Of a stretch of DNA of 64,000 nt, positions 3,201-6,200 are shown in pieces. This DNA comes from Hydrolagus affinis (lineage: Eukaryota), in NCBI GenBank assembly GCA_012026655.1, contig JAAILG010000811.1, forward strand, positions 1 to 64,000. The letters run 5' to 3'. The translations under genes and the position numbers were made by a program. Positions within the stretch are counted from its first letter, which is position 1. Each line of letters starts with the position of its first letter. The notes beneath the pieces are model-generated. The model was not told the DNA's origin, did no database searches, and saw only the letters and a list, made by a program, of their open reading frames with translations.

Positions 3201-6200
3201 AAATCTACTATGCCTTTTAAGTATCCATTCCGGTTCCAAAGAAAATGTTTCAAGCTAAAAAATGATTTCAAAAGACATGGGTAGAACCTGTCTAGCCAAC
3301 CACTAGTTACAACCTGTTTAAAAATTAAACATGAACATTCTGTTGATAATTATTTGCAATGGCACCGATACTTGTACGGTAAAAGATCTTCAGTGCTGTA
3401 AGAATCTGACAACATAGGCTTATTAAACTCATGGAGCATTTTATTTTGGAAAGCCTTCTTTGAAAGAACGTTTCTATTTGTATTAGGTTGAAGAATTGCG
3501 ACGTGACCTGAGAATCAAGAGTCAGGAACTGGAGGTGAAAAATGCAGCAGCTAATGATAAGTTAAAGAAAATGGTGAAAGATCAACAGGAAGCTGAAAAG
3601 AAAAAGGTAGTATTTGTGACATGTATTTTTCCAGATGTGTGTTCATTGACTGAACAAGAGCCATCTGATAATGTTTATTTTCAACGGGAACCATTCCTGT
3701 GAGCAAAGTTAGTGTATTTTACGTTGTTTTGTTCACATCAAACTTTCCTTTCAGGTTATGAGTCAAGAAATTCAGGAGCAGCTACACAAGCAACAAGAAA
3801 TCATTGCAGACAAGCAGATGAAAGTAAAAGAAGATCTGGACATGGTAGAGCCCGCAGTCATTGAGGCTCAGAATGGTTAGATCAATTATTTTAAATTTAA
3901 CTTTTAAGCATACACAGATAAATTTAATTGTATAATTGCATTTAAGTTCAGTTGTTTTTTGTATTTTGGAACTGTATCCTGTATGTAAATTTTCTGTCTT
4001 TTAAATGACTGACTAAACTGATCTTTTCTGTTTTTCTCATTTCTTTCAATTTTCTATCTCTCTCCCTCTTCACTTACCTTCACTTCCTCTTGCTGTTTAC
4101 TTGGACTCCGGCCTGCGGTACTGGTTGGAATTAGCTGTAAAATCAATCAAGAAACAGCATTTGGTAGAGGTTCGGTCAATGGCAAACCCACCAGGTGCCG
4201 TGAAGCTAGCACTCGAGTCCATCTGTCTGCTCCTGGGCGAAAGTACAACTGACTGGAAGCAGATCCGATCGATCATTATGAGGGAAAACTTCATCCCAAC
4301 CATTGTAAATTTTTCAGCTGATGAAATCAGGTGAATAATGGGGTGTACGCAGATGCTGGAGGTAAAAAAGAAAATTGCTCCACAGATTGGCAGTACTGTA
4401 CACAACAAAACAAAACAAAACCACATTTATAGAGGCCCTTCACGTCGGGAGGACGTGGCAAGGCGCTGTAGGGATCAAAATAGGATCAGCTTTTTCAAGT
4501 TACCCTGAAAAGAGAATCAGCGGTGGAAAAATTATATTTTGCTATAGTGTAGATTTGAATGAACATAAAAAGATGTCTAGCAGCTAGACAAAGCAAATTT
4601 TCTTCCTCAACTGCCAGCACCTGCTACACACCCTTATCCTTTTGCATGTCCATTTAAAGCCCCTTTCTTTTCACCCTCTTATTAGCTGTGAGCTCTATAA
4701 AGAAGCAGCATCTTGTTGAAGTGAGAGCCATGGCCAATCCACCCGCTGCTGTAAAACTCGCTTTAGAATCAATCTGTCTCCTGCTGGGTGAGGAGACAAA
4801 TGACTGGAAAAAGATCAGACAAGTTATTATCAGAGATAATTTCATCACCAGCATTATCAACTTTAATACTGAAGAATTAAGGTATTATTTTTATTTAAAA
4901 TCACATTTTTCACGCACTTATTTTTTTGCAGCTCTTCATTCTTTGCATCAATTGGTTCATATGAATTTGGCACTTTTTTGCAGCACTATTGGTTTGCGAT
5001 GCTGACTTCACGGAAAGGCTTTGTTTTGTTAACGTTGATCTATCTTTTTCCCCATTCAGTGACGTGATTCGAGAGAAGATGAAGAAGAACTACATGTCCA
5101 ATCCAAGTTACAACTACGAAATTGTCAACCGAGCATCTTTGGCTTGTGGGCCGATGGTGAAGTGGGCTATTGCGCAGGTATCAAATGTGTTTTTAATGGA
5201 ACTTGTTTCGGAGCAGTGTGCAGCAGGCAAACGGTTGGATTTGTGTCACTTATTGGACACATGTTTTGTTGCTGTTAATGTGTTCTTCACTTGTGCCTTC
5301 CATGTGCCACTTATCCAAGTGACCAACTGAATGGAAGAATGAAGATTTAAGCATCAGCCTTGACCTTCTCAAATCTTGGAAGACTACCTCTGGGAGTCTA
5401 GTTTATTTTTATTTGGATGATACACTTGTGTAGCTGCTTTCATGTCCTGTATTTTTTTTGTAGCTCAATTATGCTGACGTGTTGAAGCGAGTGGAGCCTC
5501 TGCGCAATGAACTACAGAAACTTGAAGATGACGAGATGGAAAACCAACAGAAGGCTGATGACGTGGAGCAAATGATCCGTGACCTGGAGAACAGCATCGC
5601 CCGCTACAAAGAGGAGTATGCAGTTCTGATCTCTGAAGCGCAGGCCATTAAGGCTGATTTAGCCGCTGTGGAAGCCAAAGTAAGTGACTGTGCAAATCAA
5701 GTTTTTATATCAGCGGACTTTCTCTACGTATTTAATGATTCGGTTACGGAGTGAGTTCGGAGTTTAAAAAGACTTCAGGCATGATGGGTTTGATTTCCTT
5801 GAGTCAAAAGAGCTCTCAGTGAAGAGATGCAGTTTTGAGTTGTAGAGTTATATGCAAAAGGAACCAAATTAAGATCCTAGACGCATTGAGTGTAATACTG
5901 AAAAGTCTGTATTGTTTGATTATCACAGGTGAACCGAAGTACAGCACTGCTGAAGAGTTTGTCTGCTGAACGAGACCGCTGGGAAAAGACGAGCGAAACA
6001 TTTAAGAATCAAATGGCTACGATTGCTGGAGACTGTTTGCTGTCAGCTGCTTTCATGGCGTACGCAGGATACTTTGATCAGCAAATGCGTCAAAATCTGT
6101 TCACAACTTGGGCGCATCACCTACAACAAGGAAACATTCTGGTAATTCTATTGTGTTTTGGAAACCTTCAAGTTGAATCACGGAAAAAACTTTGTATCCA

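What the first reader, a model, noticed from the sequence alone, without database searches (positions are those of the whole stretch)
4335..4637. Long-range intronic RNA duplex that could enforce mutual exclusion of the MTBD exons
Seen: the 355-nt intron between exons A and B has complementary ends. 4335-4361 pairs with 4637-4611 (about 24 bp, with single-nt bulges and one mismatch; core gcag-a-tgctgg/ccagca-c-ctgc), and 4368-4379 pairs with 4604-4592 (12 bp). The stem starts at +5 of exon A's donor and ends 48 nt before exon B, looping out about 210 nt. A retrotransposon tail (4400-4470) sits inside the loop and leaves the arms intact. A 7-bp hairpin tgtctag/ctagaca (4574-4590) adjoins the inner helix. 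Established: RNA pairing controls several mutually exclusive exon pairs, and a donor too close to the next branch point cannot splice to it. Inference: folding shrinks the effective donor-to-branch distance below the steric minimum and/or masks donor positions +5/+6, which blocks A-to-B joining.
Basis: partly seen in the sequence, partly recalled or inferred. Interest (0 to 1): 0.85.

Follow-up and report, generated by a model that had tools for sequence, protein, structure and literature searches.

The report
Over-tight intron stem separates dynein exons
In a fish gene for the motor protein dynein, the intron between two interchangeable exons has ends that are complementary far beyond chance, and the predicted RNA stem likely keeps the two exons from being spliced together by pulling their splice signals too close for the splicing machinery.

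Summary
The stem is real. In a fish dync1h1 gene, the 355-nt intron between duplicated 196-nt microtubule-binding-domain exons A and B has a 21-bp outer helix (4340-4363/4610-4633) and a 12-bp inner helix. The end duplex beats 300 of 300 shuffles and all 25 other testable introns of the gene; whole-intron folding alone is unremarkable (8 of 100 shuffles). RNA of a relative uses A or B; no A-to-B junction was listed. In another relative all 6 located arm substitutions keep pairing, but none is a shown double change. The firm stem starts at +10, not +5, so donor masking is weak. It leaves about 32 nt of linker between donor and likely branch point, under the 42-nt minimum modelled for yeast zipper stems. 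Other teleosts seem to use a short intron with a distant branch point instead. Best reading: a structure-made steric lock (0.45), backed by NMD, which alone could explain the reads. New here: the 5' arm also pairs upstream of exon A (ATE1-like competition). The scan noted this exon pair before in two other genomes; I found no paper on the stem. Untested experimentally.

The parts
3755..3875 (+). Constitutive dync1h1 exon upstream of the pair (exon -1)
4004..4100 (+). Branch-point-like motif (about 4010-4018) and long pyrimidine tract of exon A; AG-free zone of 181 nt, so probably a distant branch point
   Evidence: AG-free zone; branch point inferred, not mapped
4106..4117 (+). Element U: 12 nt upstream of exon A (-29..-18), complementary to the core of the 5' arm (4348-4361); possible competing partner
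   Evidence: no difference in organism C over 4065-4134 (X16 record 8)
4135..4330 (+). Exon A, 196 nt, front part of the microtubule-binding domain (standard vertebrate form)
4340..4363 (+). 5' arm M of the outer helix (+10..+33); weak possible extension 4335-4338
4368..4379 (+). 5' arm of the inner 12-bp helix
   Evidence: two wobble-compatible changes in organism C (table 5c)
4397..4471 (-). Truncated copy of a dispersed repeat with a simple-repeat tail, inserted in the loop (limits approximate; orientation inferred from the tail)
   Evidence: empty site in organism C
4574..4590 (+). Predicted 7-bp hairpin, not conserved in organism C
4592..4604 (+). 3' arm of the inner helix
4610..4633 (+). 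3' arm D of the outer helix (-76..-53 from exon B); weak possible extension 4634-4637 over a branch-point-like motif (A4636)
4652..4685 (+). Likely branch point of exon B (A4656/A4657, -30/-29), pyrimidine tract and acceptor; AG-free zone only 24 nt
   Evidence: branch point inferred from the AG-free zone, not mapped; 4625-4676 has no listed difference in organisms B and C
4686..4881 (+). Exon B, 196 nt, alternative form of the same domain segment (47 of 64 residues identical to A)
5060..5177 (+). Constitutive exon downstream of the pair (exon +1)

Best explanation
The two ends of the intron between dynein exons A and B are complementary beyond chance and are predicted to fold into a 33-bp interrupted stem that likely acts as a steric lock, holding exon A's donor only about 32 nt from exon B's probable branch point so that the spliceosome would be unable to join A to B. 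Shown: the exon pair, use of either exon in RNA of a relative, the complementarity, and its tolerance of substitutions and of a repeat insertion in the loop. Inferred: the stem forms in vivo; the branch point is A4656/4657; U1 on A's donor and U2 on B's branch point cannot sit together on so short a linker, while each can act alone (A to exon +1, exon -1 to B). Which exon is chosen would be set elsewhere, probably at exon A's distant branch point and long pyrimidine tract, possibly tuned by a transient pairing of the same 5' arm with element U upstream of exon A. Any A+B product that leaks has a premature stop and would be removed by NMD.
For: Duplex strength. Junctions in raw poly(A) reads of organism B (X21+X22, one sample, 27-30% of each run read): -1>A 16, -1>B 24, A>+1 34, B>+1 23, no A>B or skip junction listed. 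Organism C: 6 of 6 located arm substitutions are compatible with pairing if the partner is unchanged (4 make G-U pairs, 2 hit the only two internal mismatches), chance 0.004-0.02 at transition weights bracketing the observed one, 0.05 at a high weight; 2 extra A fall in or beside the internal loop; the repeat insertion is confined to the loop. 4625-4676 (outer pairs, branch point, tract) has 0 of 52 differences against 7 of 64 in the loop (Fisher p 0.013). Geometry: linker about 32 nt against a 42-nt minimum from modelling in the yeast A complex (PMC12350175, passages). Comparative logic: teleost locus L009 has no AG in the 146 intron bases held before exon B's acceptor, 82% pyrimidine; read-through proteins P0002 and P0003 imply introns of 116 and 170 nt; 4 of 11 distinct other loci with the tandem pair have 51-108-nt introns. 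Here the linear distance is over 300 nt and the AG-free zone 24 nt, so the ordinary steric route is closed and the stem restores the short distance. Introns locked by a distant branch point resist transposon insertion (PMC7969005, abstract start and passages); this one tolerated one in the loop.
Against: No compensatory double change was seen; 2 differences of organism C in 4331-4369 could not be located. The outer 3' arm is not better conserved than the loop (4 of 24 against 7 of 64 to 17 of 90). Organism B has one change at 4594 that breaks a pair of the inner helix unless its partner, which was not covered, also changed. Whole-intron z is only -1.63. Stems that join donor and branch point usually help splicing (PMC12350175); the margin here is about 10 nt on a yeast model, and melting the outer 8 bp would give a permissive ~49-nt linker. 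The branch point is not mapped. Junctions are listed only from 3 reads, so A>B could be up to about 15% of A-donor reads per run, and NMD hides it. Of 7 other loci with 216-1193-nt introns between the pair, 5 show no end duplex and 2 are borderline, so this exon pair can exist without either steric device (their splicing was not tested). Conservation near alternative exons is expected for other reasons.
Confidence: 0.45

Rival explanations
1. NMD plus protein regulators are enough. Both exons are 196 nt, so A+B and skipping both give early stops and are degraded; tissue-specific proteins at the pyrimidine tracts choose the exon; the stem is neutral or marginal.
For: A+B gives a stop 11 codons into exon B and skipping a stop in exon +1. 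377 of 629 human clusters have lengths not divisible by three (PMC5740500, passages). 5 of 7 long-intron loci have no end duplex. Reads were poly(A) RNA with NMD active. Arm substitution rate equals loop rate.
Against: Does not explain a duplex that is best of 26 introns in exactly this intron, nor 6 of 6 compatible changes. The same paper found joining reads for only 22% of such clusters and argues for further mechanisms.
Confidence: 0.27
2. ATE1-type competing pairings. The 5' arm M pairs either with U upstream of exon A (looping out A, so B is used) or with D upstream of exon B (freeing A, repressing B); the competition itself enforces exclusivity and links the ratio to transcription speed.
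For: U:M is 12 bp, -21.0 kcal/mol over the core against -19.8 for M:D over the same core; strongest flank-to-flank duplex of 33 exons (-24.1; next -19.6; median -9.6); best of 34 acceptor-proximal windows for M; 4 of 300 shuffles as good; U lies in 70 nt with no difference in organism C (p 0.011); U and D align at 14 of 20 columns; P(U:M) 0.96-0.97 in nascent RNA ending at 4365-4400 when the pyrimidine tract is held single-stranded. Order U-A-M-D-B equals R1-7a-R3-R4-7b (PMC7797038, passages and part 3 of 7).
Against: With D transcribed, M:D wins at 0.98-1.00 in every fold; U:M is 0.00-0.12 when the tract is free (starts 3990-4070) and at most 0.02 by position 4600 in all contexts. Found after the fact; 36 other sites in the 64 kb pair with M as well or better. 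U and D do not overlap splice sites. U is invariant, so no covariation. No such duplex in 10 of 10 other loci.
Confidence: 0.2
3. The stem is functional but as a bridge or bias element (FGFR2 IAS2-ISAR style): it brings protein sites together or shortens the A-to-exon +1 path and so sets the A:B ratio, not exclusivity.
For: A stem between two exclusive exons that activates the first and represses the second is described for FGFR2 (PMC2471395, passage). Stems bridging intron ends usually aid splicing.
Against: No protein sites were identified or tested; the stem sits unusually tight against both donor and branch point.
Confidence: 0.08

Closest known systems
Steric-hindrance exclusive exons with a distant branch point (OGDH 4a/4b, PMC7969005; alpha-tropomyosin 2/3, recalled)
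   Same: Duplicated exons; proposed clash of U1 and U2 on a donor-to-branch distance under about 50 nt; other teleosts appear to use this arrangement for the same dynein exons (L009, P0002, P0003).
   Different: Here the linear distance is over 300 nt and the AG-free zone is 24 nt; the short distance would exist only after folding; the intron tolerated a repeat insertion.
Yeast zipper stems (RPS17B and others, PMC12350175)
   Same: [quoted passage not shown]
   Different: Zipper stems have 42-85 nt of linker and help splicing; this one has about 32 nt and no spliced product of the enclosed intron was listed.
Human ATE1 exons 7a/7b, R1-R3-R4 competing structure (PMC7797038)
   Same: A central intronic element complementary to elements upstream of both exons, in the same order.
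   Different: [quoted passage not shown]
FGFR2 IIIb/IIIc IAS2-ISAR stem (seen only as a passage in PMC2471395; primary paper not held)
   Same: A stem formed by elements in a pair of exclusive exons' region that activates one and represses the other.
   Different: Works by bringing protein-bound control elements together in a cell-type-specific way; no steric lock is claimed in the passage seen.
Dscam exon 17 (Yue et al. 2013; title seen in reference lists only; paper not held)
   Same: Steric hindrance and RNA structure act on one exon pair.
   Different: As recalled, the hindrance there comes from a linearly close branch point and the structures set the choice; not checked here.
Mutually exclusive exon of Schistosoma mansoni DHC1 (PMC3228551, section 9) and database models of exon B in fishes and a frog (P0007, P0008, P0029)
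   Same: A tandem exclusive exon with split codons in cytoplasmic dynein heavy chain; the exon pair itself is therefore not new.
   Different: The text read does not give the exon's position or any mechanism; no RNA structure is described.

Membership tests
Mutually exclusive tandem exons | Equal length, same phase, homologous; either but not both in RNA | tested here: met
   196 nt each, 47 of 64 residues identical; four single-exon junctions seen, no A>B or skip junction listed, in a relative (listing needs 3 reads)
Classical steric-hindrance pair (distant branch point) | Linear donor-to-branch distance under about 50 nt | tested here: not met
   Candidates lie 306-343 nt from the donor
Classical steric-hindrance pair (distant branch point) | Long AG-free zone and pyrimidine tract before the second exon | tested here: not met
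   24 nt here; at least 146 nt in teleost locus L009
Classical steric-hindrance pair (distant branch point) | Branch point mapped; a spacer releases double inclusion | not testable with these tools
   Needs lariat RT-PCR and a minigene
Zipper stem | [quoted passage not shown] | tested here: met
   21-bp helix from +10 (borderline), 22-23 nt before the inferred branch point
Zipper stem | Total linker 42-85 nt | tested here: not met
   About 32 nt with the inferred branch point
Zipper stem | Promotes removal of the enclosed intron | tested here: inconclusive
   No A>B junction listed, but NMD would hide it
ATE1-type competing structure | Central element complementary to elements before both exons | tested here: met
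   U:M and M:D share the core 4348-4361
ATE1-type competing structure | The two selectors are highly similar and of comparable strength | tested here: inconclusive
   14 of 20 columns; equal over the core, but -23 against -32.5 with the whole arm; M:D dominates at equilibrium
ATE1-type competing structure | Selectors overlap the splice sites | tested here: not met
   U at -29..-18 of exon A, D at -76..-53 of exon B
ATE1-type competing structure | Conserved across vertebrates | tested here: not met
   Kept in organism C; U not found in L038 or L017, pyrimidine tract in place of D in L009
ATE1-type competing structure | Disruptive and compensatory mutations switch splicing | not testable with these tools
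   Bench test
NMD-enforced pair | Double inclusion shifts the frame to an early stop | tested here: met
NMD-enforced pair | A+B transcripts accumulate when NMD is blocked | not testable with these tools
   No such data set was available
Known intronic RNA family (snoRNA, miRNA) | Rfam match at gathering score | tested here: not met
   One match at E 0.72, 19.9 bits against 70, outside this intron

The most novel reading that the evidence does not exclude
In one fish lineage the distant branch point that locks the dynein exon pair in other teleosts was replaced by an over-tight zipper stem: steric hindrance made by folding rather than by linear distance, indifferent to loop length, with the same 5' arm briefly pairing upstream of exon A so that transcription speed biases which microtubule-binding tip the motor gets.
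Probability: 0.25. Interest if true: 0.78.

Novelty: new variant of a known kind. Interest (0 to 1): 0.55.

Why it matters
Screens for steric hindrance between exclusive exons use linear donor-to-branch distance and explain only 9% of human clusters (PMC5740500). If folding can create the same block in a 355-nt intron, part of the unexplained majority becomes testable by a simple rule: a zipper-type stem with under about 42 nt of linker. It would also give a natural test of the linker limit modelled in yeast, an example of one mechanism replacing another at a conserved exon pair, and a handle (antisense oligos on the arms) on which microtubule-binding tip cytoplasmic dynein carries.

Tried and rejected
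Donor masking at +5/+6: pairing there is weak and context-dependent. The 7-bp hairpin as a conserved element: not kept in organism C. Intronic non-coding RNA: no Rfam match. Distant branch point near A's donor in this species: AG-free zone only 24 nt. Pairing of the 3' arm D with the region before exon A: -18.4 against -33.5 kcal/mol, never in the folds. A paralogous gene copy for comparison: only the two exons of this locus in the own genome. [quoted passage not shown] So no alignment-based covariation test (RNAalifold, pair counts) was run. No run on record as RNA holds the window's own sequence; RNA evidence is from relatives. The repeat finder missed the stem because of its bulges. The first exon script had coordinates off by one and was redone. 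Literature: searches found no paper on this exon pair in vertebrates or on its intron; searches found none describing a stem that creates steric hindrance between exclusive exons; the library lacks most subscription papers, and PMC3917985 and PMC309649 were not held. Supplements of PMC5100056 and PMC3228551, not opened, may locate the dynein exon pair.

Full report
Setting. The window starts inside a single-copy cytoplasmic dynein 1 heavy chain gene of a fish (inferred from protein identity and from a fish-gut metagenome run that holds an identical stretch). Exons A (4135-4330) and B (4686-4881) are both 196 nt, 135 of 196 bases and 47 of 64 residues identical; each gives an open frame between exons -1 and +1, while A+B and skipping give early stops. 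They encode part of the microtubule-binding domain (PF12777 and dynein MTBD fusion constructs among the hits). B-type exons occur in proteins of other teleosts and a frog (P0001, P0003, P0006-P0008, P0029), and 14 of 79 metagenome loci carry a tandem pair of this exon. The pair is thus old and already present in database models; two earlier notes of this scan report it in other genomes.

Splicing. Raw poly(A) reads of relative organism B (runs X21, X22; one sample; 27-30% of each run read; counted from 88% likeness) show -1>A 9+7, -1>B 5+19, A>+1 17+17 and B>+1 6+17 reads; no A>B and no skipping junction was listed, the listing threshold being 3 reads. Contigs of organism C show -1>B in X15 and -1>A in X16. 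This supports mutual exclusion at the level of stable RNA only.

The stem. The duplex is present in the MFE and centroid. Pair probabilities are 0.84-1.00 for 4340-4359/4614-4633, 0.71 for the last 3 pairs and 0.91-0.97 for the inner helix in 5 of 5 contexts up to 1423 nt; the extension to +5 reaches 0.45 in 1 of 5. Whole-intron energy is marginal (z -1.63, 8 of 100), but the end-to-end duplex is -42.7 kcal/mol, z -4.6, 0 of 300 shuffles, best of 26 introns of the gene long enough to test and matched by 4 of 2059 background windows. The windows were set after seeing the stem, but a margin of over 12 kcal/mol to the next intron makes chance unlikely. No Rfam family explains it.

Conservation. 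Only two relatives could be compared, through contigs laid on the window. Organism C differs in the outer 3' arm at 4610 and 4624 (each leaves a G-U pair) and at 4613 and 4620 (the two internal mismatches), and in the inner 5' arm at 4371 and 4378 (each leaves a G-U pair); it has two more A at the internal loop and lacks the repeat. Six of six located substitutions are compatible if partners are unchanged; chance is 0.004-0.02 at transition weights of 1-2 (observed 1.33) and 0.05 at 4. For the four outer changes alone it is 0.05-0.23. Two further differences in 4331-4369 were counted but not located, so compensation could neither be shown nor excluded. The outer 3' arm changes as often as the loop (4 of 24 against 7 of 64). 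Organism B has one change at 4594 that breaks an inner pair unless its uncovered partner changed. Positions 4625-4676 have no listed change in either relative. The 7-bp hairpin is not kept in C.

Geometry. Exon B's AG-free zone is 24 nt, which points to a branch point at A4656/4657; the linear distance from A's donor is 326-327 nt, the path through the stem base 33-34 steps, that is about 32 unpaired nucleotides. Modelling of stems in the yeast A complex required at least 42 nt of linker (PMC12350175, passages); the linear threshold quoted for exclusive exons is about 50 nt (PMC7969005 and PMC5740500, passages). The stem is thus a zipper-type stem about 10 nt too tight. Melting the outer 8 pairs would give about 49 nt; those pairs' 3' side is unchanged in both relatives.

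Comparison. Teleost locus L009 has no AG in the 146 intron bases held before exon B's acceptor (82% pyrimidine), and two read-through proteins imply introns of 116 and 170 nt whose translations suggest a pyrimidine tract from about 45 nt after the donor (inferred from amino acids, organisms unknown). That is the classical distant-branch-point layout. Of 11 distinct other loci with the tandem pair (13 of the 14 examined, two duplicates merged), 4 have introns of 51-108 nt and 7 have 216-1193 nt; of those 7, 5 show no end duplex and 2 are borderline (z -2.8, -1.9). So a short donor-to-branch distance recurs at this pair but is not universal.

A second partner. The core of the 5' arm (4348-4361) is also complementary to 4106-4117, upstream of exon A: 12 bp, strongest flank duplex of 33 exons, best of 34 acceptor windows, top 0.6% of 30-mers, 4 of 300 shuffles, inside 70 nt without a difference in organism C. 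The order matches ATE1 R1-R3-R4 (PMC7797038). But it forms only in nascent RNA with the pyrimidine tract held open or cut off (0.95-0.99 for ends at 4400), is 0.00-0.12 otherwise, is gone by 4600, and always loses to M:D once D exists. I treat it as a possible bias element, or as a rival mechanism.

Verdict. Observation confirmed with small corrections. Most likely the stem is a structure-made steric lock against A-to-B joining (0.45), with NMD as back-up; NMD and proteins alone (0.27), ATE1-type competition (0.20) and a bridge that sets only the ratio (0.08) remain. It works like steric-hindrance pairs but fails their linear-distance test, has the anatomy of a zipper stem but fails its linker test, and meets only part of the ATE1 definition; I class it as a new variant of RNA-structure-controlled exclusive splicing. 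Searches found no description of this stem or of hindrance created by folding. Papers were seen as passages (PMC5100056, PMC7969005, PMC5740500, PMC10790352, PMC11802352, PMC7404189, PMC6071210, PMC2471395, PMC12350175, PMC9013439 with no hit), as section 9 plus passages (PMC3228551), and as part 3 of 7 plus passages (PMC7797038); no supplements were opened.

Noticed in passing
window 3876-4134: Exon A's acceptor has a 181-nt AG-free zone, the longest of 34 introns (next 64), with a branch-like motif near 4010-4018 and a long pyrimidine tract; the first exon of the pair has a zone of 80-236 nt in 7 of 12 other loci. A probable distant branch point and the likely site of exon choice.
   Followed up: partly
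L020, L026, L030, L031/L032/L035, L050, L066, L068, L072/L076, L077, L080, L085: Tandem copies of the same microtubule-binding-domain exon in 14 of 79 metagenome loci, mostly invertebrate-like, with introns of 51-1193 nt: the duplication is very old or recurrent.
   Followed up: partly
L017:1689-2331: A vertebrate-like locus (97% to exon A) with no trace of exon B in its 642-nt downstream intron, so exon B was lost in some lineages.
   Followed up: partly
runs X15, X16 laid on window 3846-4881: In organism C one run shows only the -1>B junction and the other only -1>A, hinting at a strong sample-specific switch; in X16 one contig runs from the end of exon A through the intron and all of exon B at depth 88 against 10 for the upstream intron, a weak hint of retention of the A-B intron (contigs only; RNA status is a guess).
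   Followed up: no
P0001: A public grenadier gene model joins A and B in one protein, probably a mis-annotation of the exclusive pair.
   Followed up: no
P0002, P0003, P0004: In these species the intron between the two exons is an open frame linking A and B, so retention would give an in-frame doubled segment; here the intron starts with an in-frame stop.
   Followed up: no
window 4074-4082: When the pyrimidine tract of exon A is free, the purine-rich end of the 5' arm (4357-4365) is predicted to pair with it instead, again enclosing exon A in nascent RNA.
   Followed up: partly
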